Shown here: piece by piece, positions 3,864 through 46,413 of the stretch | Numbering within the stretch: the first letter of the stretch is position 1 | How the letters are laid out: every line of letters begins with the position of its first letter | NCBI RefSeq assembly: GCF_053078305.1 | Contig: NZ_CP166879.1 | Length of the DNA: 64,000 nucleotides | Direction: 5' to 3' (one strand) | Made by a program: the position numbers and the translations under genes | The notes under the pieces: model-generated | What the model saw: only the letters and a program-made list of their open reading frames with translations | Told to the model about the DNA's origin: nothing | Databases searched by the model: none

Positions 3864-6026
3864 TTATTTCGCATCCGACTTATATTCGTATTCGTAATAG
3901 CCATAATCCTGATACGCGCTGGCGCGGCGGAAGATGGAGTTCAGAATCACCCCTTTCACCGGAATACCATTTTGCTCAAAGCGGCTCAGACTGGTTTCCA
4001 CTTCTTTCAATGTGTTGACCGCATAACGCGCCACCATTAACGTGGTTCCGACATGACGACCAACAATTGCGGCATCGGTCACTGCCAGAATCGGCGGCGT
4101 ATCAATCAACACCAGGTCGTAGTTTTTACTCGCCCAGTTCACCAGTTCGGCAAAGCGTTCGCTCATCAACAATTCAGAAGGATTTGGCGGTACCTGACCG
4201 CGCGGGATCAGGTCAAATTTGGCAATCGAAGTGGGTTTAGCAGCGGTAGTAATATCGCCCTGACCAATCAGAATTTCCGACAGGCCATTGACGTTATTGG
4301 TGCCCAACAGCTCGTGGGTGTAGCCTTTGCGCATATCGCAGTCGATCAACAATACGCGTTTATTAGTCTGGCTAATGACCGCCGCCAGGTTAGCGCAGAC
4401 AAAGGTTTTACCGATTGACGGGCTAACCCCGGTCATCATCAACACATTGTTCTGCGCCTGCATCATCGCGAAGTGCAGACTGGTACGCAGACTGCGGATG
4501 GCTTCAATCGCCAGATCGGTTGGATTCCCCACCGCCAGTAGCTGGCTCTGTTTATAGCGTTTAACTCCTTTGATGGTTTTGACGCTATCGCGCGCTTTCT
4601 GCCATTCCGACAACGGGATGCTGGCATAGACGCTGATACCGTGTTCTTCCAGCACTTGCGGGCTTTCAATGCCGCGATTAAACAACGAGCGCAGCAGTAC
4701 ACCCACGATAGAGAGCATCAGGCCGAGGATAATCGCCCCAAGGATAATCAGCCCTTTCTTCGGTTTCAGTACACCTGGCTGGGTGATTGCCGGGTCAACA
4801 ATGCGCACATCGCCGACGGTGCTGGCCTCGGTGATTTTCAGCTCCTGCTCTTTATTCAGCAGTTGCATATAGACCTGCTGACCAGACTCGACATCGCGGG
4901 TCAGACGCACAATTTCCTGCTGGGTTTTCGGCATCGCCGTTACGCGACCATTAAGTTTGGCTTTTTCGTCTTCCAGCGCCTGCCGTTTCTCCAGCAGCGT
5001 GCGGTACGCCGGGTGAACTTTGGTGTACAGCTTGGAGATTTCCGCCTCTTTAAAGGTCAGTTCGTTCAACTGCGCGTCGATGTTCACCATCGAATCGAGC
5101 ACCGCTTTCGCTTCCAGCGGCAGATCAACAGAATCTTTATCCTGACGGAAGGCATTCAGTTTGTTTTCGGCAACATCAAGGCGGCTACGTACTTCCGGTA
5201 ACTGTTGCGCGAGGAAAGCGAGACTTTTCGACGCTTCCGCCGATTTGCGCTCAATATTTTGTTCCTGATAGTTACGGGCGATGCTGTTAAGAATGTCGCG
5301 GATCTGTTCGCGATCTTCACCGGTATAAGTCAGGCTCAGTACGCCTGCGTCTTTGCCGTTCTCCGTTACCGTCAGGCTGTTTTGCAGTTGATTGATCATC
5401 CCCAGCGTGGAGTATTTGGTGACGGTAAACTCACTGCCCGGGCTGGCGTGAATGGCTTCAACCATCAGTGTGACGCCTTCTTTTTTCAGCATCTGGCCCG
5501 CTTGCCCACGGGCGCTAAAGCCGCCATCACTGCTCAGGGTGTAGTTTTTGTCATCCAGCACATTAAGCGTAAACACCTGATCCGCCATCTCTTTCGGACG
5601 GTTAAAGGTAGTCACTTTCACCGTCTCGTTCTGGCGTCCCATCAGGCGATCCCAGCCCGCACCGAAAATCGGGAACGTGTTTTTGCTCACCGCAATATCG
5701 AGGTCGAGATCGTCCACCGTTTTACCAAGCACCAGGCGCGAACGAATCAACTGGATCTCGGCGTCCGATGCTGGCGGTTTGTTGGCTAACGCCGATCCGA
5801 TATCCTGCACTAACGAATTGCCGCTGCTTTGCTCGATTTGTACCAGTGCGTCGGCACTATAAATCGGCGTGGCGAAGAAGGTGTAAACCACGGCACAAAG
5901 GGCGAATACAGCGGTGATGCCAATCACCCACCAGCGCGCTTCAATGACGGTGCCGACCAGGCGACCAATATCGATTTCATCACTGCCCGTTACCGGAGCG
6001 GCATGTTGTTTTACTTTTTCTGTCAT
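3864..6026 (-). CDS. wzc: tyrosine autokinase / polysaccharide co-polymerase Wzc
   Basis: ORF 3864-6062. From MTEKVKQHAAPVTGSDEIDIG (720 aa) it matches K-12 Wzc. It has Walker A GVSPSIGKT and a C-terminal Tyr cluster YQDYGYYEYEY. Confidence 0.95.
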   Translation of the reverse strand: MTEKVKQHAAPVTGSDEIDIGRLVGTVIEARWWVIGITAVFALCAVVYTFFATPIYSADALVQIEQSSGNSLVQDIGSALANKPPASDAEIQLIRSRLVLGKTVDDLDLDIAVSKNTFPIFGAGWDRLMGRQNETVKVTTFNRPKEMADQVFTLNVLDDKNYTLSSDGGFSARGQAGQMLKKEGVTLMVEAIHASPGSEFTVTKYSTLGMINQLQNSLTVTENGKDAGVLSLTYTGEDREQIRDILNSIARNYQEQNIERKSAEASKSLAFLAQQLPEVRSRLDVAENKLNAFRQDKDSVDLPLEAKAVLDSMVNIDAQLNELTFKEAEISKLYTKVHPAYRTLLEKRQALEDEKAKLNGRVTAMPKTQQEIVRLTRDVESGQQVYMQLLNKEQELKITEASTVGDVRIVDPAITQPGVLKPKKGLIILGAIILGLMLSIVGVLLRSLFNRGIESPQVLEEHGISVYASIPLSEWQKARDSVKTIKGVKRYKQSQLLAVGNPTDLAIEAIRSLRTSLHFAMMQAQNNVLMMTGVSPSIGKTFVCANLAAVISQTNKRVLLIDCDMRKGYTHELLGTNNVNGLSEILIGQGDITTAAKPTSIAKFDLIPRGQVPPNPSELLMSERFAELVNWASKNYDLVLIDTPPILAVTDAAIVGRHVGTTLMVARYAVNTLKEVETSLSRFEQNGIPVKGVILNSIFRRASAYQDYGYYEYEYKSDAK

Positions 6027-6477: not shown

Positions 6478-7617
6478 TTACCAGTTATGAATGTCGCTGG
6501 CTGTATCCGTCATGTAACGGACACCGCTAATAGTTGGCAGCAACTGATTGATCAGACGGTTCCAGCGGGAAACCGGGGCGGTGGTGACATACACCACGTC
6601 ATAAGGTTGCAGGCGGAATTCTGTCGCCATCACCAGCGACGTGGCATCGGACATATCCAGCTGGTAGATATTGGCAATCTTGCCGTTACGCCCGCCCTCG
6701 CCTTTCAGCGGACGAATGACAAAGATGCCGCTGGCGTTGGAGGTGGTCATGTCGATGCCTTCAGCATTGCCCAGGGCTTCAGTCAGGGTCATGCCGCTAA
6801 AGTCCATTTTCAGGGTGCTCTGTTTCTTCACTTCACCCATCACAAATACTTTCAGATCATCATTACGTGGCACGTAGAGAATATCGCCGGGGTAAAGCAG
6901 GCGATTCTGGTTGAGGTCGCCGTTTTGCATCAGCGCCTGCAAAGAAATGCGCTCTTCACGACCATTGTGTGTTAGCACCACGTTGCGCCAGTCAGCGGTG
7001 TCGGTCAGGCCACCTGCGGCGTTGATGGCATCGAGAATGGTCAGTGGTACGTTGGTAATCGCCTGTTGACCGGATTTATTCACCTGGCCGGAGATATAGG
7101 CTTTTTGCGAGCGGAAGGCGGCGATATTAACGTCCACCTGCGGGTCAGCGATGTACGTCGCTAAGCGCCCGGTAATATCACTGCGGATTTCAGCGAGCGT
7201 TTTCCCCACGACGTGAACCTTGCCGATATACGGGTAGAACATGGTGCCGTCAGGCTGTACCCAGTTGCCGGTGTCGCTGGAACTGCGGTACTGACCAGCT
7301 GGCGTGGTGAGTTCCGGGTGATCCCAGACGGTGACATTAAGAACGTCGCCCGGCCCGACGCGATACTGGTAATTCGCGATCTCGCTTTCCAGCGTCATAT
7401 TGGGGCGCGCTACATTCGGGCGTGGGCGTAATTGGTCAATCAGGCGCGGGGTCAGCGGATACACATTCACCATTTTGTCGAGATCGAAATCAGCGTCCTG
7501 CTGTTTGATGACGTCTTTGCCCATCGTCGACATATTGCTGCCCGGAAGTACTGTGCAACCGCTTATCAAGGTTACTGACACCAATAATGGCATCAATTTC
7601 ATTTTGGATTTCATCAT
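6478..7617 (-). CDS. wza: outer-membrane polysaccharide export lipoprotein Wza
   Basis: 379 aa with a lipoprotein signal ending LISGC. Matches K-12 Wza and is the first gene of the capsule operon. Confidence 0.95.
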
Positions 7618-19441: not shown

Positions 19442-19867
19442 ATGGCAGAAACTCAGATGAGCATGTTTGGTGGTGACAGTGAGCAACTGCACGCCCTTAT
19501 CGACCGCCTTGATGACATCCCTGATGATGTTCTCAAAAAGAACTGGCCGCGGACCCTGTCAGAACTGGTTGAAGTCACCGGCGCAGAACTTCAGCGTCAG
19601 GGGATTGAGCCGGTACTGGCCGGTAAACTGGCACGCAAGGTGGCTGCGGCTCAGGCAGCCTATATGGGCGGACGGGGTTATTACCTGCCGGTCGGGGAAT
19701 CTCTCTTTGCCGAGCTGCGAAACAATGAGATATTTTCGCGCTGGGACCGGGGCGAGAAGATTGAATCCCTTCGCCGCCATTACCGGATGTCAGAAACCCA
19801 GATTTATACCGTCATACGTGAACAGCGCCGTCTGCATCTGGCAAGAACGCAACCGCCACTTTTCTGA
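19442..19867 (+). CDS. mor: Mor/C-family transcriptional activator
   Basis: 141 aa. The C-terminal half YMGGRGYYLPVGESLFAELRNNEIFSRWDRGEKIESLRRHYRMSETQIYTVIREQRRL parallels Mu Mor (GGGQVYIPRGQALDSLIRDLRIWNDFNGRNVSELTTRYGVTFNTVYKAIRRMRRL). Confidence 0.82.
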   Translation: MAETQMSMFGGDSEQLHALIDRLDDIPDDVLKKNWPRTLSELVEVTGAELQRQGIEPVLAGKLARKVAAAQAAYMGGRGYYLPVGESLFAELRNNEIFSRWDRGEKIESLRRHYRMSETQIYTVIREQRRLHLARTQPPLF

Positions 19868-27064: not shown

Positions 27065-27151
27065 GTCGGTGGTGGGGGTCGAACCCACATAAACATCCTT
27101 CGGGTGAAGATATCCCTCAGGTGCCGCTTTACCAGTTAAGAGTACACCGAC
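27064..27151 (-). ncRNA. tRNA-like element (88 nt) with canonical acceptor stem and T-arm but non-canonical D/anticodon core
   Basis: The minus strand reads GTCGGTG-TA-[54 nt]-GTGGG-TTCGACC-CCCAC-CACCGAC-T. It has a 7/7-bp acceptor stem, a 5-bp T stem, a T-loop of TTCGANN type, and a D-loop-like TAACTGGTAA with GG. The best anticodon-like hairpin is ATCTT-CACCCGA-AGGAT, with A instead of U at position 33. No CCA is encoded. Confidence 0.5.
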
Positions 27152-39573: not shown

Positions 39574-40655
39574 TGCCTTATCAGCCCTTACCACTGGCGC
39601 AACTGATCACACAGACACAACAGGATATCAGCCAGCGCCTGCCCGGTTCGCAGCCGGGCGTGAATGAAACCACCCTGAATGCCATTGCGTATGCACTGGC
39701 GGGTCTGTCAGCACAGGAGCATGAACATCTGGCCTGGATCTCCCGGCAGATAATTCCGACAGAAGCTGATGAAGCCGAACTCCTGAAACACTGCGCATTC
39801 TGGGGTGTCATCCGTAAACCGGCTTCCCGCGCTGACGGACCGGTACAACTGATGCTGACCACGGATGCAGGGATCACGGAAGGCGTACTCCTTCAGCGAA
39901 GCGATGGTGTTGTGTACCGCATCACCGGCTCTGCGACCGGAAAAGCCGGAACACTGAATGTTAATGTGGAGGCGGAAAGTGCGGGGCGCGCCGGAAATAC
40001 CCCGACCGGAACCCGCCTGTCCTTTATCACGCCACAGGCGGGCATCAACCAGACAGCCACGGTTACCGGCACGGGACTCACCGGTGGTGCGGATGTGGAA
40101 ACGGTGCCGGAGTTGCTGTCCAGGCTGGTATTCCGGGTACAGAACCCGCCATCAGGGGGAACACAGTATGATTTTGAACGTTGGGCACGGGAAGTACCGG
40201 GCGTGACGCGGGCATGGTGTAAGCCTGAATGGCCAGAGGCGGGTAGTGTTGGTGTGACTTTTGTTCAGGATAATAACCCTGACATTTTCCCCGGAGAAGG
40301 TGATGTGAAGCGGGTGGCGGATTATATCCGCAGTCATGATGATCCGGCGACGGGCCAGCCCGTTGGTCAGCCACTTGGGCCGACAATCAGCGTGTTTAAG
40401 CTGACCAATAAGCCGGTGGCGTTTGAGATCAGGATTGTACCCAAAACGCCGGAAAATCAGGCTGCCGTAAAACAGGCATTAACGGACCTGCTTTATAACG
40501 AATCGCGGCCGGGTGGACTTGTATTGCCTTCATCATTCTGGCGGGCTGTTGCAGGGGTGAAAGGACTGGAGGATTTTGAAGTTCGCAGTCCGCTGAAGTC
40601 CGTAATGGCCGGAGATACAGAGTTGCTGACCGTGGGGGAAATCACATGGCTGTAA
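39570..40655 (+). CDS. baseplate wedge protein, J-like (Mu gp47-like)
   Basis: 361 aa with ATGA coupling. Called by synteny with Mu gp47 / P2 gpJ. Confidence 0.82.
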   Translation: MMPYQPLPLAQLITQTQQDISQRLPGSQPGVNETTLNAIAYALAGLSAQEHEHLAWISRQIIPTEADEAELLKHCAFWGVIRKPASRADGPVQLMLTTDAGITEGVLLQRSDGVVYRITGSATGKAGTLNVNVEAESAGRAGNTPTGTRLSFITPQAGINQTATVTGTGLTGGADVETVPELLSRLVFRVQNPPSGGTQYDFERWAREVPGVTRAWCKPEWPEAGSVGVTFVQDNNPDIFPGEGDVKRVADYIRSHDDPATGQPVGQPLGPTISVFKLTNKPVAFEIRIVPKTPENQAAVKQALTDLLYNESRPGGLVLPSSFWRAVAGVKGLEDFEVRSPLKSVMAGDTELLTVGEITWL

Positions 40656-41206
40656 CCCTGACCCCGCATCAGCGCGCCCTGTTGCAGTTGCTGCCTGACG
40701 GGCTGGCATGGGATAAGCGGCCGTCATCCGTTCTTGCAGCTTTGTGCCTGGGTCTCAGTCATTCCACGGAGCGTGTTTCCTGGACCGGTAACCAGATGCT
40801 GGCAGAACGTTTTCCTGATTCATCCCGTCTGCTACTGGAAGACTGGGAGCGTTATCTGGGGTTACCGGAATGTGATATGACCGGCGCAACCATTCAGGAG
40901 CGTCAGCGTTATGCCGGGAATAAATACCGGATGAAACCCTCTCTTAACCGTGAATTTTATATCCGGTTTGCGGCAGAGTTTGGTTATGAAATAGATATCC
41001 AGCCATCACCGGAATCACAATGGATCAGTATTGTGACAGTGAAGACGGCGGTGGGATACCGTCACATGAATGTGCTGGATGATATTCTCACGCCGCTGCG
41101 TATTTATGAAGGCGGTGCGCTGGAATGTATTCTGAACCGTTATAAGCCTGCATGGCAGACGTTTATTTACGTGTATGCAAACAGCCATGAAGAGGAGACT
41201 ATTTAA
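40646..41206 (+). CDS. baseplate/tail protein (Mu gp48-like, P2 gpI-like)
   Basis: 186 aa, precedes the tail fibre gene. Called by synteny. Confidence 0.72.
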   Translation: MAVTLTPHQRALLQLLPDGLAWDKRPSSVLAALCLGLSHSTERVSWTGNQMLAERFPDSSRLLLEDWERYLGLPECDMTGATIQERQRYAGNKYRMKPSLNREFYIRFAAEFGYEIDIQPSPESQWISIVTVKTAVGYRHMNVLDDILTPLRIYEGGALECILNRYKPAWQTFIYVYANSHEEETI

Positions 41207-42117
41207 TGTTTCATGTTGATAATAATTCCGGCGTGGCGAATATGCCTGCGCTGGCACCGGCGCAGAGTAATACCACCACCTGGTTTACCGAAGGTGACGG
41301 ACAAAAAGGTATCAGCTGGATTGGTCAGGACTGGCTGAATATTCTCCAGGCCGAACTGCTGAATATTCTGGCTGAAGCCAGTATTCAGCCGGATAAGGCG
41401 CAGTTAAACCAGCTTACGCTGTCCATTAAAGCCATTATCGCTGCGAATGCCTTTTCCCGGAAAAACAACCTGAAAGAAATTGCTGATGCCGGTGCGGAAG
41501 CCCAGCGTCTTGCCCGTGGTTATCTTGGTCTTGGGGCGCTTGCCACAAAAAACAGTCTTGGTCCCGGTGACGTTAATGCTCTGGCGAAGGATCAGAACCT
41601 TGCCGACCTGGAGAATGCGGGAACCGCCCGTAATAATCTGGATGTTTACAGCAAAAGCGAAGGTGATAACCGTTACCTGCGCAGGGAGCAGAACGGCGCA
41701 GACATTCCGGATAAAGGCGCTTTTATCGATAACGTCGGTTTACGGGAAACGGTAAATAAGGCTGCTGATGCCCTGCCATCGGGTGGAACCGCCGTGGCAG
41801 CAAACAGACTCGCCACCCCAAGAAATATTAATGGCGTTCCTTTTGACGGAACGCAGGATATCAACATCACGTCAGGAATGACGCAGTCAACCGCAGATGG
41901 CCGGTATGTACAGAATGTTCAGCTTGGAGCACAGAGCTATCATTCACCCGGAGGCAATGAAATATCATGGAATTACAGCGCACCTTCCGGTTGTATGCTT
42001 TCCGGTATTAACGTGCAGGAAACCGGCTCCCGGTCTGCGGACAATATCGGTGGGGTCTATTATCGCCCGGTTCAGATTTATATTAATAATGCCTGGAGAA
42101 CGGTAAGTTCAGTGTAA
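41206..42117 (+). CDS. tail fibre protein (S-like): constant N-terminal part fused to the currently expressed variable C-terminus (Sv)
   Basis: 303 aa. The gene crosses the left gix-like site at 41723-41748. Its C-terminal 127 aa lie inside the invertible segment and resemble the alternative cassette on the opposite strand. Confidence 0.82.
   Translation: MFHVDNNSGVANMPALAPAQSNTTTWFTEGDGQKGISWIGQDWLNILQAELLNILAEASIQPDKAQLNQLTLSIKAIIAANAFSRKNNLKEIADAGAEAQRLARGYLGLGALATKNSLGPGDVNALAKDQNLADLENAGTARNNLDVYSKSEGDNRYLRREQNGADIPDKGAFIDNVGLRETVNKAADALPSGGTAVAANRLATPRNINGVPFDGTQDINITSGMTQSTADGRYVQNVQLGAQSYHSPGGNEISWNYSAPSGCMLSGINVQETGSRSADNIGGVYYRPVQIYINNAWRTVSSV
41723..41748 (+). promoter_or_regulatory. 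left crossover site (gix-like) for the Gin-type invertase
   Basis: TTATCGATAACG-TC-GGTTTACGGGAA compares with Mu gix TTATCCAAAACC-TC-GGTTTACAGGAA. The core TC is at 41735-41736. Confidence 0.7.
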
Positions 42118-42127
42118 ACCACAGAAA

Positions 42128-42146
42128 AGGGTGCTGAATGCACCCT
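42128..42146. terminator. hairpin between the convergent tail-fibre gene and the tail-fibre assembly gene
   Basis: AGGGTGC-TGAAT-GCACCCT (7-bp stem). The minus-strand side is followed by TTTCTGTGG. Weak U-tract. Confidence 0.35.
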
Positions 42147-42151
42147 CTGAA

Positions 42152-42673
42152 TTATTCCGGTTTTTCCGGCCAGGGAATCGCCTGGTAATGCCCCTCACTG
42201 GCAATATCATTAAAGTGCATTTCTTTAAGCTGTCGGATATACGCCATCCAGCGCGTCAGCTGTAATTTATTTTCATCGCTAATCATGTCCAGTTTTAATT
42301 CTGTTTTCCAGTCATCCACGGTTTCGTTGGCTTCCTGGAGCAGCGATGAGCGACGCTTTTCAGCAACCGTCTTCCAGTTTACCGGCACCTTTGATATCAG
42401 GCCATCAGAAAACTGCCAGTTACCGTCAATATTCACACCTTCCGGCAGTTCGTCCACTTCAACAACAGTAAAACCTGCCGGATATAAAGCAGAGACATCT
42501 TCAGCAACAGAGCAGATAATACCCGTTACAGGCGAAATACAGAGTTTGTATTTCTTTGTGAAAAGCGGGATAGATTCATAAAAATCCCTTCCGTCCTCAC
42601 TCTGGAAATACTGAACATCCTCACCATAGGGTTTGTGTTCCGGGTAATATCGTTTTACGTTAATAAGCTCCAT
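42152..42673 (-). CDS. tail fibre assembly protein (U'-like chaperone) of the silent orientation
   Basis: ORF-track 42152-42784. ATG at 42673 follows AAGGTGA and gives 173 aa (Mu U is 175 aa). MELINVKRYYPEHKPYGEDVQYF... has a typical Tfa/U-family N-terminus. Confidence 0.8.
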   Translation of the reverse strand: MELINVKRYYPEHKPYGEDVQYFQSEDGRDFYESIPLFTKKYKLCISPVTGIICSVAEDVSALYPAGFTVVEVDELPEGVNIDGNWQFSDGLISKVPVNWKTVAEKRRSSLLQEANETVDDWKTELKLDMISDENKLQLTRWMAYIRQLKEMHFNDIASEGHYQAIPWPEKPE

Positions 42674-42752
42674 TATTTCACCTTGTTTTTGTTGAAAAGA
42701 CAAAATCATCATATATTTATTCAGATAATCTGTTTTTTGAACTACTGCACTT

Positions 42753-43109
42753 TTATGCGCTGGAAGCTGTTTTCCACGAACCATCTATCAGAAACTGAAC
42801 AGGTCGATAATATGCGGTTACCGTTGCATTACCATCACCAGCGACATCAAGCCCTGTAAGTACGCATCCGTCAGGAACTTCAAAAATATTATATTGCATT
42901 CCAATCGTTGACCTTGAACCTCTTCGAATGCTTTGAACATAACGTGAGTCAGCCACAGACTGCGTCATCCCCGATGTAATATTTATATCCTGCGTTCCGT
43001 CAAATGGGACACCATTAATATTTCTTGGAGTGGCGAGTTTATTCGCTGCAACAGCCGTTCCGTTCGATGGCAGGGCATTCGCGGCCCTGTTTACAGTATC
43101 CCGTAAACC
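42753..43109 (-). CDS. silent alternative tail-fibre C-terminal cassette (Sv'), no own start codon
   Basis: Read on the minus strand from the right gix core, the frame continues the S constant region: GLRDTVNRAANALPSNGTAVAANKLATPRNINGVPFDGTQDINITSGMTQSVADSRYVQ...YYRPVQFLIDGSWKTASSA. This parallels the expressed Sv. Confidence 0.75.
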   Translation of the reverse strand, partial: GLRDTVNRAANALPSNGTAVAANKLATPRNINGVPFDGTQDINITSGMTQSVADSRYVQSIRRGSRSTIGMQYNIFEVPDGCVLTGLDVAGDGNATVTAYYRPVQFLIDGSWKTASSA

Positions 43110-43123
43110 GAGGTTTCAGGGAT
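43098..43123 (+). promoter_or_regulatory. right crossover site (gix-like)
   Basis: ATCCCGTAAACC-GA-GGTTTCAGGGAT. Its reverse complement ATCCCTGAAACC-TC-GGTTTACGGGAT matches the left site and Mu gix. It is 55 bp upstream of the invertase gene. Confidence 0.75.
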
Positions 43124-43177
43124 GCCGTATATCTGCTTTAAAAGGCCTTTCCACCTCTTTTTAAGGAAGGTAAATAC

Positions 43178-43738
43178 ATGCTGATTGGCTATATACGCGT
43201 ATCAACAAATGACCAGAACACCGGTTTACAAAGAAATGCGCTGGAATGTGCAGGATGTGAGCAGATTTTTGAAGACAAAATGAGTGGTAAAACGACACAG
43301 CGGCCGGGACTGAAGCGGGCACTGAAGAAACTAAAACCCGGTGACACACTGATGGTCTGGAAACTGGACAGGCTGGGGCGCAGTATGCGCCACCTTGTTG
43401 CGCTGACAGATGAATTACAGCAACAGGGGATAAATTTTCGTAGTCTTACTGACAACATTGATACGTCAACCCCCATGGGGCGCTTCTTTTTTCACATAAT
43501 GGGTGCGCTGGCAGAAATGGAGCGTGAATTAATTGTCGAACGGACACGGGCTGGTCTTGCAGCTGCCCGTGAAAGGGGACGAACCGGCGGCAGACCCCGT
43601 CGTCTCACGCAGGAACAATACGAGCAGGTCGGGCGTTTACTGGCCGGGGGTGTCAGTCGAAGACAGGTGGCACTTATTTTTGATATCGGCCTTTCAACCC
43701 TTTATCGTTATTATCCTGCGAGCGTTTCGGAAAAATAA
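43178..43738 (+). CDS. gin: Gin/Hin/Cin/Pin-family serine DNA invertase
   Basis: 186 aa. MLIGYIRVSTNDQNTGLQRNAL... contains the catalytic Ser in RVST, a resolvase core, and a C-terminal HTH (RRQVALIFDIGLSTLYRY). Confidence 0.93.
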   Translation: MLIGYIRVSTNDQNTGLQRNALECAGCEQIFEDKMSGKTTQRPGLKRALKKLKPGDTLMVWKLDRLGRSMRHLVALTDELQQQGINFRSLTDNIDTSTPMGRFFFHIMGALAEMERELIVERTRAGLAAARERGRTGGRPRRLTQEQYEQVGRLLAGGVSRRQVALIFDIGLSTLYRYYPASVSEK

Positions 43739-43828
43739 GACGCTCCCTTTGTTGGGCCTTTACTGAATTAACGCAAAATGGCGTTTATCGGTCTGTGGAT
43801 ATGATAATTCTGTTTATTCAGGAACAGG

Positions 43829-45886
43829 ATGAATATTATGACGTCCAAATGGGTTCAACTATCATCAATGCCCGGAAACTTTACCGTTAAAGTTTCCGGT
43901 GGTACAGCGGCATTTCTTGAGGCTCCCTTTCCTCCTGCTGAAACGAAAGGAGGAATGACATTTGCTGACTGTCTCATCAGTTTTAATACACAGGATTGCC
44001 TGTGGGTAAGGCCAGTATCCGGTGATCCGAACGTGGAAATTACCGGAGCGGGTATTGGTGCTGTCATTCCGTTAAGTGCTGATGTTGCCGGTACTACTGA
44101 ACCGTCAGACTGGGATAATGCAGAAACACATACCCGTCCGGCAGGAAATGAAACGGCTTCCAGCTCCCCTTCCTGGTATTACGTGATTGTTATAGCCGGC
44201 CAGTCCAATGCTTCATCTTATGGTGAAGGGTTGCCCCTTCCGGATTCTTATGATCGTCCTGATCCACGTATTATGCAGCTGGCACGCAGGAATACACAAA
44301 CCCCCGGAGGTATTCCCTGCAAATACAATGAAATCATTCCAGCAGATCACTGCCTTCATGATGTTCAGAATATGAGTCTGCTGAACCATCCAAAAGCAGA
44401 CCTGAAAAAAGGGCAGTATGGTTGTGTGGGGCAGGGACTTCATATTGCGAAAAAAGTATTACCGGTGATTCCTGCTGATGCCGGGATTTTACTGGTTCCC
44501 TGTGCCCGTGGCGGCTCTGCTTTTACAACCGGCGCAGTTGGCTCATTCGATCCGGCAAGTGGTGCAGCCGAGGCGTCACTACGCTGGGGAGTGGATACCC
44601 CACTGTATCAGGATCTTGTCAGTCGAACTAAAGCGGCACTTGAGGCGAATCCAAAGAATGTGCTGTTATCTGTCGTATGGATTCAGGGGGAAGGAGACCT
44701 TAAAGCGACCCCGGCCCAGCATGGTGCCCAGTTTACTGCGATGGTGAAAAAATTCCGTGCGGATCTTGGGGCTTTCTCCGGTCAGTGTATTGGTGGTTCA
44801 TCAGACAGTGTGCCGTGGTTATGTGGTGACACAACCTATGACTGGAAAGAGAAGAACCCGGCGGCATATGAAACCATTTATAGCGGATATAAAAACCGGG
44901 CTTCCGAGAACATTCACTTTGTTCCACTGATGCACGATGAGTTCGGTAATAAAACCGCGACCAACCTGCCGGAGCACGACCCGGATATCGCTTCTGCCGG
45001 GTATTATGGTGCGGAATCACGGGGAGATGGCAACTGGACAACAGCATCCAGGGCAACCCATTTTAGCTCCTGGGCGCGCCGTTTTCTGGTCTCAGATCGT
45101 TTTGCATCAGCAATTCTTAAATATGCAGGTCTGACCTCTGCATTTATTGCCGGTGTGGCCCCTGATGGTGAAACCCTGCCTCAGCCCGCGCCGGGTGGGA
45201 AACCGGAAGCGCCGACAGGTAGTCAGCCAGGAGGCAGTGAGTCCCCCCATCCGACATCCCCGTCACTCCGTACGCTGCTTTCACTTAAAGCATCAGCAGG
45301 AGAAGCCCCGGCTCAGGGCTGGAAAATTACAGATGGTACAATCCAGCTGACGGACGAAGGTAAAGCGTTGACCGTATCCAAACAAAGCGGAAAAACCTGG
45401 ACGCTTACCCATGGAACTGATGCAGCCGGTGAACTTCTGAAGCATGGTGGTCAGTTGACCTGTAAATTCCGTCTGTCAGGTGAAGTAAAAGAAGGCCAGT
45501 TTGCTCTGGGTATTTACCTCCACACCGATACGGTCCCGGAAGGTGTAACCATGAGTGGTACAGGCACACCGTTCCTGATGGCGTATTATCTCCAGACAAC
45601 AGGCGGCCAGTTAAATCTGATGCACCATAAAACAGGGGGGAATACGAAACTGGGATCATTTGGAGCCTACAATAACCAGTGGCATACACTTGTCCTGAAG
45701 TTTACGGCGGGAAGTGCCCAGGTAACGCCTGTGCTGGATGGCACTCCGGGCCAGGCATTCCAGATGGTGAAAGATGCACTTTCCCCTGCCAAAGATACGC
45801 TGACACTGACAGATGTCACCAAAGGGGCAACTTATGGCGTGTCTTTTGAGAGCGTTGTCCTTGAGGTTAATACCCCTGCGGCATAA
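43829..45886 (+). CDS. three-domain cargo protein: unknown N-terminal domain + SASA-type (sialate O-acetylesterase-like) esterase + LamG/ConA-like C-terminal domain
   Basis: 685 aa. VIVIAGQSNASSYGEG and VVWIQGEGD are the GQSN and WxQGExD blocks of the SASA / 9-O-acetylesterase family. A Pro/Gly-rich linker (PQPAPGGKPEAPTGSQPGGSESPHPTSPS) precedes a beta-rich C-terminal ~200 aa (NQWHTLVLKF). SD AGGAACAGG. Confidence 0.75.
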   Translation: MNIMTSKWVQLSSMPGNFTVKVSGGTAAFLEAPFPPAETKGGMTFADCLISFNTQDCLWVRPVSGDPNVEITGAGIGAVIPLSADVAGTTEPSDWDNAETHTRPAGNETASSSPSWYYVIVIAGQSNASSYGEGLPLPDSYDRPDPRIMQLARRNTQTPGGIPCKYNEIIPADHCLHDVQNMSLLNHPKADLKKGQYGCVGQGLHIAKKVLPVIPADAGILLVPCARGGSAFTTGAVGSFDPASGAAEASLRWGVDTPLYQDLVSRTKAALEANPKNVLLSVVWIQGEGDLKATPAQHGAQFTAMVKKFRADLGAFSGQCIGGSSDSVPWLCGDTTYDWKEKNPAAYETIYSGYKNRASENIHFVPLMHDEFGNKTATNLPEHDPDIASAGYYGAESRGDGNWTTASRATHFSSWARRFLVSDRFASAILKYAGLTSAFIAGVAPDGETLPQPAPGGKPEAPTGSQPGGSESPHPTSPSLRTLLSLKASAGEAPAQGWKITDGTIQLTDEGKALTVSKQSGKTWTLTHGTDAAGELLKHGGQLTCKFRLSGEVKEGQFALGIYLHTDTVPEGVTMSGTGTPFLMAYYLQTTGGQLNLMHHKTGGNTKLGSFGAYNNQWHTLVLKFTAGSAQVTPVLDGTPGQAFQMVKDALSPAKDTLTLTDVTKGATYGVSFESVVLEVNTPAA

Positions 45887-45943
45887 TCGTGACGGCCGGG
45901 AATTTATCCGGCTGTAACATCAGTTAATAAGAGTGAGGCTTAT

Positions 45944-46123
45944 ATGACATATATAAACGTCTGCCTGCTGTATTTCTGCACGGTGGTTTGTTGTCTGTTG
46001 CTTGTCAGCGGTGGTTATAAAATTATTCGCAATTATTTTCGAAATAAAATTGATGCAGCTGCCGAGGAAAAGATAAAAAGCGGTGCTGTAATGCCGCAGC
46101 CGAAAGACTCCGGTCAGATTTAA
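45944..46123 (+). CDS. candidate small membrane protein (59 aa; below ORF-track cut-off)
   Basis: ATG at 45944 follows GAGTGAGG. MTYINVCLLYFCTVVCCLLLVSGGYKIIRNYF... has one N-terminal TM helix and a charged tail. Confidence 0.45.
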   Translation: MTYINVCLLYFCTVVCCLLLVSGGYKIIRNYFRNKIDAAAEEKIKSGAVMPQPKDSGQI

Positions 46124-46158
46124 TTTTTTGTGAACCAGAAAAGGAAAGGAGAATATTC

Positions 46159-46404
46159 ATGCCAGAGATTAAAGGCACGGTTACTGAAGAGCTTGTCAAA
46201 CAGGCACTTTATTCTGAAGAAGTGAACCGCGTGCTGAAGGCGCAGGTTCGCAAGGATTTTGAGGCACAAATCGACGCATATGTTGATGAAGTGCTGGCCC
46301 GAATGGTTGGTCGTTCTCCGGCTGAAAACAGCACGGAAAATGAGCCTCAACCCGTAGAGCAACCAGAGCCGGTTCAACCCGGAACTGACGGTACTATGAT
46401 GTAA
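46159..46404 (+). CDS. hypothetical 81-aa protein, helical N-terminus and acidic Pro-rich tail
   Basis: ORF with SD AAGGAAAGGAG. The tail reads ENSTENEPQPVEQPEPVQPGTDG. No recognisable family. Confidence 0.5.
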   Translation: MPEIKGTVTEELVKQALYSEEVNRVLKAQVRKDFEAQIDAYVDEVLARMVGRSPAENSTENEPQPVEQPEPVQPGTDGTMM

Positions 46405-46413
46405 CAATACCGA

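What the first reader, a model, noticed from the sequence alone, without database searches (positions are those of the whole stretch)
41723..43738. Minimal, asymmetric Gin-type host-range switch: two alternative fibre tips but only one chaperone
Inverted gix-like sites (41723-41748 and 43098-43123, core TC/GA) flank only about 1.37 kb, against about 3 kb for the Mu G segment. In the present orientation the fibre gene (41206-42117) ends inside the segment and is followed directly by the 3' end of a minus-strand gene. No U-type assembly gene is expressed in cis. After inversion, the constant part would join in frame to Sv' (43109 to 42753), followed by the U'-like chaperone (42673 to 42152).

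Both variable arms start with about 150 bp that are roughly three-quarters identical by eye, encoding …NINGVPFDGTQDINITSGMTQS…. This extends homology well beyond the 26-bp crossover sites.

Either the current fibre tip folds without a dedicated chaperone, or it uses the U' gene from an internal promoter, or the element has lost one U gene and one orientation yields defective particles.
Basis: partly seen in the sequence, partly recalled or inferred. Interest (0 to 1): 0.5.

Follow-up and report, generated by a model that had tools for sequence, protein, structure and literature searches.

The report
Fibre-tip inversion switch with one chaperone
A Mu-like prophage of E. coli (the Sp18 type of O157 strains) flips a 1.4-kb DNA segment to swap the tip of its tail fibre, and unlike phage Mu it carries only one fibre-assembly chaperone for the two tips, a conserved design rather than a broken one.

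Summary
Two inverted gix-like 26-mers (41723-41748 and 43098-43123, cores TC/GA) sit inside 182-nt arms that are 79% complementary. They flank 1.37 kb next to a Gin orthologue.

Inverting the segment in silico gives an in-frame 295-aa fibre followed by the only Tfa gene. Both orientations occur in complete E. coli genomes: 181 as in the window and 25 inverted.

The element is the Sp18-type Mu-like prophage. Its invertible region was mentioned in 2009, but I found no description of the single chaperone.

All 40 related short-fibre loci have exactly one Tfa. It is co-oriented with one tip class and convergent with the other.

The Tfa's nearest relatives in other phages lie directly after fibres carrying the distal tip type, which is the tip now expressed. 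That tip is old and under strong constraint. Relatives that have lost gin still keep an intact convergent Tfa.

My preferred reading is one shared chaperone expressed independently of orientation, but no promoter was found. I class it as a new variant of a known kind, of moderate interest.

The parts
41206..42117 (+). Tail-fibre gene in the present orientation (303 aa). It joins a constant part, Sc (about 41206-41734), to the 'distal' D1 tip (41735-42117).
   Evidence: ORF. Residues 1-198 match Mu S residues 1-191 (overall 1.3e-48). Residues 228-302 match the Mu S C-terminal tip, residues 434-503. The tip alone best matches the C-terminus of the phiTE short tail fibre (9CUY, 1.9e-16).
41723..41748 (+). 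Left gix-like crossover site with core TC at 41735-41736. It lies inside the fibre ORF, within the codons for FIDNVGLRE.
41731..41912 (.). Left arm of the extended inverted repeat. It encodes the shared N-terminal ~55 aa of both tips.
   Evidence: (182 nt, 79% complementary).
42126..42148 (.). GC-rich hairpin between the two convergent stop codons (fibre stop 42117, Tfa stop 42152). It looks like a bidirectional terminator.
   Evidence: The terminator scan reports it on the minus strand. A hairpin of -14 to -16 kcal/mol sits at this position in every class of locus, with two unrelated sequences.
42152..42673 (-). The only tail-fibre assembly (Tfa) gene, 173 aa. In this orientation it converges on the expressed fibre gene.
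   Evidence: Pfam Caudo_TAP 1.9e-18. Match to Mu U, chain 5yvq_B, 2.3e-15. It is the only Tfa hit in the window. Its N-terminal domain is 67-72% identical to Tfas that directly follow D-type tips in other phages.
42674..42752 (-). AT-rich 79-nt spacer between the stop of the silent tip and the Tfa start. It is a candidate site for an orientation-independent promoter or translation signal.
   Evidence: Spacers are 79-80, 120-121 or 51 nt in this clade, against 1-8 nt by annotation in canonical fibre-Tfa pairs. The last 65 nt of the type-2 spacer are 86-100% identical where Tfa dS is 0.3-0.4. Only weak -10-like hexamers were found.
42753..43109 (-). Silent alternative tip cassette ('proximal' P1 tip). 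It has no start of its own and is co-oriented with the Tfa.
   Evidence: It matches the Mu S tip at 2.7e-6. Its nearest phage relative is the fibre of Hafnia phage yong1 (57% identity).
42934..43115 (.). Right arm of the extended inverted repeat.
43098..43123 (-). Right gix-like crossover site. The core reads GA on the + strand at 43110-43111.
43178..43738 (+). Gin-type serine DNA invertase (186 aa), outside the segment.
   Evidence: Pfam Resolvase 1.4e-51 and HTH_7 1.7e-14. Match to Mu Gin, 3UJ3, 2.3e-91 over residues 1-182.

Best explanation
This is a working Gin-type inversion switch in the tail-fibre gene of an Sp18-type Mu-like prophage.

Gin recombines the two gix sites. One site lies inside the fibre ORF. 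The constant N-terminal 176 aa is therefore joined either to the D1 tip (present orientation, 303 aa) or to the P1 tip (inverted, 295 aa).

Unlike Mu, P1 or SfMu, the segment holds one Tfa chaperone for both tips, and this is the conserved design of the clade. By family, that Tfa is the natural partner of the D-type tip now expressed.

I infer that it is transcribed independently of the segment's orientation. The start point would be the conserved spacer upstream of it, or a promoter further upstream on the minus strand. The Tfa would then act in trans on whichever tip is made. After inversion it is also co-transcribed with the fibre. A hairpin between the convergent genes would stop the two transcripts from colliding.

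Shown: the anatomy, inversion in nature, the conservation of the single-Tfa layout, and the family relationships.

Inferred: that the Tfa is expressed in the convergent orientation, that both tips need it, and that the two tips give different host ranges.
For: - Real switch: gix pair and in-frame fusion; Gin orthologue; 181 E. coli genomes in the window's orientation and 25 in the predicted inverted one, with strains 8479 and Z869 holding both. Locus L004 encodes exactly the predicted fusion product.
- Conserved design: all 40 short-fibre Mu-like loci scanned (39 related loci and the window's own) have exactly one Tfa. Three Tfa variants (61-64% identical to the window's) and five tip types are involved.
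- Tip classes: distal tips are only types D1 or D2, and proximal tips only P1, P2 or P3.
- Tfa matches the distal tip: outside this clade, Tfas 53-59% identical (67-72% in the fibre-binding N-domain) lie directly after fibres. In most of those loci the tip is D-type, and in nearly all the rest it is a related type.
- Tfa does not match the proximal tips: the nearest relatives of P1 (Hafnia yong1) and of the Mu-S-like tip P2 are followed by Tfas only about 30% identical to this one.
- The unaccompanied tip is functional: D1 tips have dS from 0.2 to above 2 with dN/dS 0.05-0.15 in all pairs but one, a pair of near-identical tips with only nine substitutions (0.36).
- Natural 'locked' derivatives (L010-L014, L021, L026) have lost gixR and gin. 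They keep the convergent Tfa intact, with dN/dS 0.13-0.23 at dS up to 0.38.
- Signs of autonomous expression: a long spacer that is conserved in the type-2 loci, instead of tight coupling, and a conserved hairpin between the convergent stops.
- The phage is active: Sp18 is spontaneously induced, efficiently packaged and gives Mu-like particles (PMC2669165). Integration sites differ between strains (PMC7430833).
Against: No promoter was demonstrated. The consensus scan finds no sigma-70-like site on the minus strand between the Tfa start and gin. A relaxed scan gives only weak candidates.

The late-promoter-like motif shared by three late operons of this prophage is absent upstream of the Tfa.

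The pairing of Tfa families with tip families is not one-to-one. SfMu and fiAA91-ss pair D-type tips with Mu-U-type Tfas.

Purifying selection on the Tfa of locked elements could have been imported by recombination with switchable relatives.

The 181:25 bias is inflated by clonal O157 genomes.

There are no expression or assembly data for this phage's fibre.
Confidence: 0.5

Rival explanations
1. The chaperone serves only the co-oriented (proximal) tip. The D1 tip now expressed folds and trimerises without any Tfa, so inversion toggles both the tip and whether a Tfa is made and carried on the fibre.
For: Operon logic: the Tfa is downstream of the fibre only after inversion. No promoter was found for the convergent orientation. 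The tips are small, about 70 aa of specific sequence.
Against: In other phages, D-type tips are followed directly by a Tfa: SfMu, fiAA91-ss, Rac-SA53 and 34 IMG/VR loci. This Tfa's fibre-binding N-domain belongs to the subfamily paired with D-type tips, not to those paired with P1- or P2-like tips. Gin-less locked relatives can never co-transcribe the Tfa, yet keep it intact under constraint. Tfa variants combine freely with different proximal tips.
Confidence: 0.2
2. This is a decayed switch. A second U gene was lost, and the present orientation gives fibreless or non-infectious particles.
For: The canonical relatives Mu and SfMu have two Tfa genes. Only 34 nt separate the fibre stop from the Tfa stop.
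Against: The layout is shared by every short-fibre locus examined across diverged lineages. There is no remnant of a second gene. D1 tips are strongly constrained, with dN/dS 0.05-0.15 in all pairs but one. The supposedly defective orientation is the majority, 181 against 25. It is also the one fixed in the locked relatives. A dedicated hairpin is maintained between the convergent genes.
Confidence: 0.1
3. The Tfa for the present orientation is supplied in trans by other resident prophages. EHEC genomes carry phages whose fibres have D-type tips and whose Tfas are 53-59% identical.
For: Related Tfas lie next to D-type tips in many E. coli phage contigs. O157 strains carry many prophages, and cross-complementation between them has been reported (PMC2669165).
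Against: A phage cannot rely on this in a new host. It also does not explain why the segment keeps its own Tfa in locked elements.
Confidence: 0.07

Closest known systems
Phage Mu G segment (Gin; S, U, U', S'), and SfMu
   Same: The invertase is a Gin orthologue (2.3e-91). It has gix-type sites with a crossover inside the fibre gene. The constant part of the fibre is homologous to Mu S residues 1-191, and both tips are homologous to the Mu S C-terminal domain. The Tfa is homologous to Mu U. The position is the same: after gp48 and before the mom-side end of the prophage.
   Different: The segment is 1.37 kb, against about 3 kb in Mu (from memory). The fibre lacks about 240 aa of the Mu S middle region. 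There is one Tfa instead of two (SfMu has two). The Tfa converges on one tip, and a 79-nt spacer replaces tight coupling. The arms are 182 nt, against the 34-bp repeats reported for Mu and SfMu (PMC4406740).
Sp18, the Mu-like prophage of E. coli O157:H7 Sakai
   Same: It is the same kind of element. The region is 98-99% identical to Mu-like prophages in O157 genomes. [quoted passage not shown]
   Different: That paper does not describe the gene content of the segment or the single chaperone. My searches found no paper that does.
Carotovoricin Er tail-fibre inversion (Nguyen et al. 2001; invertase called Ein in PMC13195805)
   Same: It is a Din-family invertase that swaps only the C-terminal part of a fibre, in a short segment.
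   Different: From memory, the segment is about 790 bp and holds only the two tip ends. I could not read the paper, so the position of any chaperone there is unchecked. It belongs to a tailocin, not a phage.
Multi-cassette inversion systems (Min of plasmid p15B; locus L049 found here)
   Same: There are more alternative tips than chaperones. L049 has three gix-like sites, three tips and one Tfa.
   Different: The window has just two sites and two tips. The p15B comparison is from memory only.

Membership tests
Gin/Din-type invertible tail-fibre segment (Mu G type) | An adjacent serine invertase of the Gin/Cin/Pin/Hin group | tested here: met
   Resolvase and HTH_7 domains. Match of 2.3e-91 to Mu Gin, 3UJ3, over residues 1-182.
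Gin/Din-type invertible tail-fibre segment (Mu G type) | Two inverted 26-bp gix-type sites with matching 2-bp cores | tested here: met
   Sites at 41723-41748 and 43098-43123 with cores TC and GA. The 17-mer is unique to these two places, and no shuffle gave a match.
Gin/Din-type invertible tail-fibre segment (Mu G type) | The crossover lies inside the fibre ORF, so one constant part is joined in frame to alternative C-termini | tested here: met
   Products of 303 aa and 295 aa. The predicted fusion is encoded in L004, among others.
Gin/Din-type invertible tail-fibre segment (Mu G type) | Both orientations occur among otherwise near-identical copies | tested here: met
   181 against 25 complete E. 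coli genomes. Strains 8479 and Z869 carry both.
Gin/Din-type invertible tail-fibre segment (Mu G type) | Each alternative tip is followed by its own assembly gene (S-U and S'-U') | tested here: not met
   One Tfa in the window and in all 40 related loci. The SfMu control has two.
Gin/Din-type invertible tail-fibre segment (Mu G type) | A Fis-dependent recombinational enhancer in cis | not tested
   I had no reference sequence for the enhancer and no Fis-site model.
Gin/Din-type invertible tail-fibre segment (Mu G type) | Inversion catalysed by the encoded invertase, and a different host range in each orientation | not testable with these tools
   This needs read-level data or experiments.
Caudo_TAP tail-fibre assembly proteins (Mu U / lambda Tfa) | A sequence match to the family and to the solved Mu U chaperone | tested here: met
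   PF02413 at 1.9e-18, 67.3 bits against a cut-off of 22.1. Match to 5yvq_B at 2.3e-15.
Caudo_TAP tail-fibre assembly proteins (Mu U / lambda Tfa) | The gene lies immediately downstream of, and is co-transcribed with, its cognate fibre gene | tested here: not met
   It converges on the expressed fibre, with 34 nt between the stops. It lies 79 nt downstream of the silent tip. The gap is 1-8 nt in SfMu, fiAA91-ss, Rac-SA53 and yong1.

The most novel reading that the evidence does not exclude
The switch toggles two things at once. In the inverted orientation, tip and Tfa are co-expressed and the fibre carries a Tfa cap. In the present orientation, no Tfa is made and the D1 tip is naked.

Mu and Ur-lambda Tfas stay on the mature fibre and are said to contribute to host recognition (PMC9608196). 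A paper titled as showing that Tfa proteins also bind host surfaces is cited in PMC11915804. Inversion would then change host range through both the tip and the presence of a second surface-binding protein.

A related, equally unexcluded reading is that one Tfa N-domain matures two tips whose specific parts share only about 30% identity.
Probability: 0.15. Interest if true: 0.6.

Novelty: new variant of a known kind. Interest (0 to 1): 0.42.

Why it matters
Tail-fibre chaperones are usually treated as fixed partners of the fibre gene just upstream. That assumption guides both genome annotation and the engineering of phages and tailocins with swapped receptor-binding tips.

Here is a widespread, active prophage of EHEC in which two tips share one chaperone, and the chaperone converges on the tip it matches by family. 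It is a natural test case for three questions:
- how specific the Tfa N-domain really is;
- whether a Tfa can work in trans from its own transcript;
- whether small Mu-S-type tips need a chaperone at all.

It also shows that invertible fibre segments can be much more compact than the textbook Mu and P1 examples.

Tried and rejected
- Consensus sigma-70 scan of 41000-44000: no site upstream of the Tfa on the minus strand.
- Relaxed scan: only weak -35 elements paired with TATGAT (42713-42708) or TATAAT (42893-42888).
- Late-promoter-like motif CTGAWWTHHCGCAAAR: found upstream of lys, the protease gene (Mu I position) and the esterase, but not upstream of the Tfa.
- Rfam at E<=0.1 on 40500-47500: no match.
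- Scan of species-representative genomes with the fibre: no short-fibre relatives, only distant Mu-like loci. The clade seems largely confined to E. coli, Shigella and Citrobacter rodentium.
- Papers not held: North & Davidson 2021 (PMC7811200) and Nguyen 2001 (PMC100113).
- I considered whether the gin-less loci are the ancestral state. I rejected this because they keep a remnant of the 3' end of a P-type tip (..TAYYRLI..) upstream of the spacer.
- An annotated 'tRNA-OTHER' in the RefSeq relative was not confirmed by ARAGORN.
- I did not attempt structure prediction. The tool folds single chains, and the question concerns a 3:3 complex.
Full report
**1. The observation**

The region contains an inverted repeat with arms at 41731-41912 and 42934-43115. 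The arms are 182 nt long and 79% complementary.

At the outer ends of the arms lie two 26-mers. One is TTATCGATAACGTCGGTTTACGGGAA (41723-41748). The other, read as reverse complement, is ATCCCTGAAACCTCGGTTTACGGGAT (43098-43123). Their central dinucleotides are TC and GA.

The 17-mer AACSTCGGTTTACGGGA occurs only at these two places in the 64 kb, in opposite orientation. None of 100 shuffles gave a match.

- a 303-aa fibre gene at 41206-42117;
- a minus-strand Caudo_TAP gene at 42673-42152 (1.9e-18);
- a start-less minus-strand tip cassette at 43109-42753;
- a resolvase-family gene at 43178-43738.

Recombining in silico at the two cores gives an in-frame 295-aa fibre. A 79-nt spacer and then the Tfa gene follow it.

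**2. What the parts are**

The invertase is an orthologue of Mu Gin (2.3e-91 to 3UJ3 over residues 1-182).

The fibre is a shortened Mu S. Its residues 1-198 align with Mu S 1-191. Its residues 228-302 align with the C-terminal tip of Mu S, residues 434-503. About 240 residues of the Mu S middle are missing.

The Tfa is homologous to Mu U as crystallised with that tip (5yvq_B, 2.3e-15).

The two alternative tips are 57% identical over 122 aa. The first ~55 residues are nearly identical, which is why the repeat arms are long. The last ~65 residues are divergent but clearly homologous.

Upstream are Mu gp47- and gp48-type baseplate genes. The whole element is a 38-kb Mu-like prophage.

**3. Identity and literature**

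The region is 98-99% identical to Mu-like prophages in many E. coli O157:H7 and other STEC genomes. It is therefore the Sp18 type of prophage of strain Sakai.

Asadulghani et al. 2009 (PMC2669165) make several relevant statements:
- it is spontaneously induced;
- its DNA is efficiently packaged;
- Mu-like contractile particles are seen.

Another study notes that integration sites differ between strains (PMC7430833).

I found no paper describing the gene content of the segment or its single chaperone.

**4. Inversion happens in nature**

In 5,426 complete E. coli genomes, 181 hold the window's arrangement over at least 80% of a 3-kb query. Twenty-five hold my in-silico inverted version, the best at 98.8% identity in one collinear piece.

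Strains 8479 and Z869 carry copies in both orientations. Locus L004 encodes exactly the predicted fusion junction...FIDNVGLRDTVNRAANALPSNG....

It does not measure rates within one culture.

**5. One chaperone is the design, not an accident**

I fetched 77 related loci from IMG/VR and mapped Sc, tips, Tfa, Gin and the downstream esterase. A Tfa HMM finds exactly one Tfa ORF in the whole window and in each of the 40 short-fibre loci. It finds two in the SfMu control.

The clade is diverse. It has three Tfa variants (61-64% identical to the window's), five tip types and three spacer types. The layout is nevertheless always the same: one tip co-oriented with and upstream of the Tfa ('proximal'), and one convergent with it ('distal').

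The tip types do not mix between positions:

| Position | Type | Characteristic sequence |
|---|---|---|
| Distal | D1 (the window's expressed tip) | ...SADNIGGVYYRPVQIYINNAWRTVSSV |
| Distal | D2 | ...TADNVGGVYYRPLQYLLNGAWVTAASI |
| Proximal | P1 (the window's silent tip) | ...ATVTAYYRPVQFLIDGSWKTASSA |
| Proximal | P2 | Mu-S-like |
| Proximal | P3 | ...NDFIAFRPLQKLVGGTWITVSQL |

**6. Whose chaperone is it?**

I fetched 80 loci encoding relatives of the Tfa. Outside the Mu-like clade, the closest ones (53-59% identical) lie directly after a fibre gene. In 34 of the loci in that scan the tip carries the D-type motif (...SADNIGGVYYK..QIYINGAWRSVSG). Nearly all the rest have a related ...YRPLQMYINNAWRTING type.

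Rac-SA53 is an annotated example. Its fibre tip is 65% identical to D1, and 2 nt later comes a Tfa 53% identical to the window's.

The N-terminal domain is the fibre-binding domain of Mu Tfa according to North et al. 2019, as summarised in PMC9608196. For the window's Tfa, identity in that domain is:
- 67-72% to these D-tip partners;
- 75-77% to the other Mu-like variants;
- 32-35% to Mu-U-type Tfas.

The proximal tips tell the opposite story. The nearest phage relative of P1 is the fibre of Hafnia phage yong1 (57% identity). It is followed at 8 nt by a Tfa only 32% identical to the window's. P2 resembles the Mu S tip, whose partner is Mu U.

So by ancestry the sole chaperone matches the tip it converges on, not the tip it follows.

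The mapping is not strict. SfMu and fiAA91-ss pair D-type tips with Mu-U-type Tfas.

**7. Is the unaccompanied orientation functional?**

Several lines say yes.
- D1 tips are anciently diverged yet strongly constrained. dS runs from 0.2 to above 2, with dN/dS 0.05-0.15 in all pairs but one. The exception (0.36) is a pair of near-identical tips with only nine substitutions.
- P2 tips are almost identical between loci, so they look recently spread.
- The window's orientation is the commoner one, 181 against 25. Clonal O157 genomes inflate this figure.
- Seven loci (L010-L014, L021, L026) are natural 'locked' derivatives. They keep Sc plus a D tip, the hairpin, the convergent Tfa and its spacer, and about 75 nt of a P-type tip's 3' end. 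They lack gixR and gin, and the esterase gene follows directly.
- In those locked loci the Tfa can never be co-transcribed with the fibre. It is nevertheless intact, and within that class it shows dN/dS 0.13-0.23 at dS 0.11-0.38. Recombination with switchable relatives could have imported some of that signal.

**8. How might the Tfa be expressed when convergent?**

Canonical fibre-Tfa pairs are tightly coupled, with 1-8 nt between the genes. In this clade the gap is 79-80, 120-121 or 51 nt.

The last 65 nt of the type-2 spacer are 86-100% identical between loci whose Tfa genes have dS of 0.3-0.4. That points to a constrained non-coding element.

A strong hairpin (-14 to -16 kcal/mol) always sits between the two convergent stop codons. 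It has two unrelated sequences in D1 and D2 loci. This is what one would expect if both genes are transcribed towards each other.

I could not find a promoter, however. The consensus scan is empty on the relevant strand. A relaxed scan gives only weak candidates.

A motif shared by three late operons of this prophage, CTGAWWTHHCGCAAAR, lies at 19866, 27791 and 43765 on the + strand. It is absent upstream of the Tfa.

Expression of the Tfa in the present orientation is therefore an inference.

**9. Verdict**

My explanations, with confidence:

| Explanation | Confidence |
|---|---|
| A shared chaperone that belongs by family to the expressed tip and is made independently of orientation | about 0.5 |
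| A chaperone-independent D1 tip | about 0.2 |
| A decayed switch with one defective orientation | about 0.1 |
| Complementation by other prophages | under 0.1 |

The element is a known prophage and the mechanism is the classic Gin switch. The one-chaperone, convergent layout appears undescribed. I class it as a new variant of a known kind, of moderate interest.

A similar 'more tips than chaperones' layout turned up in an unrelated long-fibre Mu-like locus, L049. It has three gix-like sites, three tips and one Tfa. The phenomenon may therefore be broader than this clade.

Noticed in passing
window 19866, 27791, 43765 (+ strand): A 16-nt motif, CTGAWWTHHCGCAAAR, occurs exactly three times in the 64 kb, always on the + strand and 50-75 nt upstream of a start codon. 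The three genes are the lysozyme gene, the head protease gene (Mu I position) and the esterase gene. It is probably the binding site of the prophage's Mor/C-type late activator. No copy was found for a P-operon equivalent.
   Followed up: partly
window 43829-45886 (+): A 685-aa protein with a sialate O-acetylesterase (SASA) domain and DUF6645 sits just after gin, where Mu has com and mom. It is preceded by the late-promoter-like motif. It is a cargo gene with several diverged alleles among related prophages (52-100% identity).
   Followed up: partly
L049 4001-7871 (IMGVR_UViG_2878893965_000006): A long-fibre Mu-like locus with three gix-like sites (4819-4852, 6780-6856, 7190-7223), three alternative tips and a single Tfa. 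Here a D-type tip is the one next to the Tfa. Having fewer chaperones than tips is therefore not confined to the Sp18 clade.
   Followed up: partly
L010-L014, L021, L026 (e.g. L010 2301-3554); also E. coli S1-CAM-01-A, JE86-ST05 and JE86-ST02: These relatives have lost gixR, gin and most of the proximal tip. They are fixed with the fibre and the Tfa converging, and the esterase gene follows directly. Both D1 and D2 tips occur on this locked backbone.
   Followed up: yes
L002, L003, L010, L028 etc.: 75-95 nt upstream of the Tfa start (type-2 spacer): A conserved palindrome, CTGAAATATGCGTTATTTCAG, lies in the spacer. On the strand antisense to the Tfa it reads CTGAAATAACGCATAT, which matches the late-promoter-like motif in 13 of 16 positions. 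Its meaning is unknown. It could be a divergent promoter, a relic or a regulator site.
   Followed up: no
L024 and L034, both tip cassettes: In these two loci the first ~50 codons of the distal and proximal cassettes are identical (..AANKLATPVNINGVPFDGTQ..), whereas in the window they differ. This suggests gene conversion between the inverted arms.
   Followed up: no
window about 27072-27151 (-), equivalent to L165 20623-20702: RefSeq annotates a 'tRNA-OTHER' here in the near-identical O157 prophage. ARAGORN finds no tRNA in the window at this place.
   Followed up: yes
window 42753-42968 (-) and 43030-43164 (+): RefSeq relatives annotate a 67-aa 'tail fiber protein' and a short 'hypothetical protein' here. 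These are an ATG-initiated fragment of the silent tip cassette and an ORF antisense to it that spans gixR. They are most likely annotation artefacts of the start-less cassette.
   Followed up: partly
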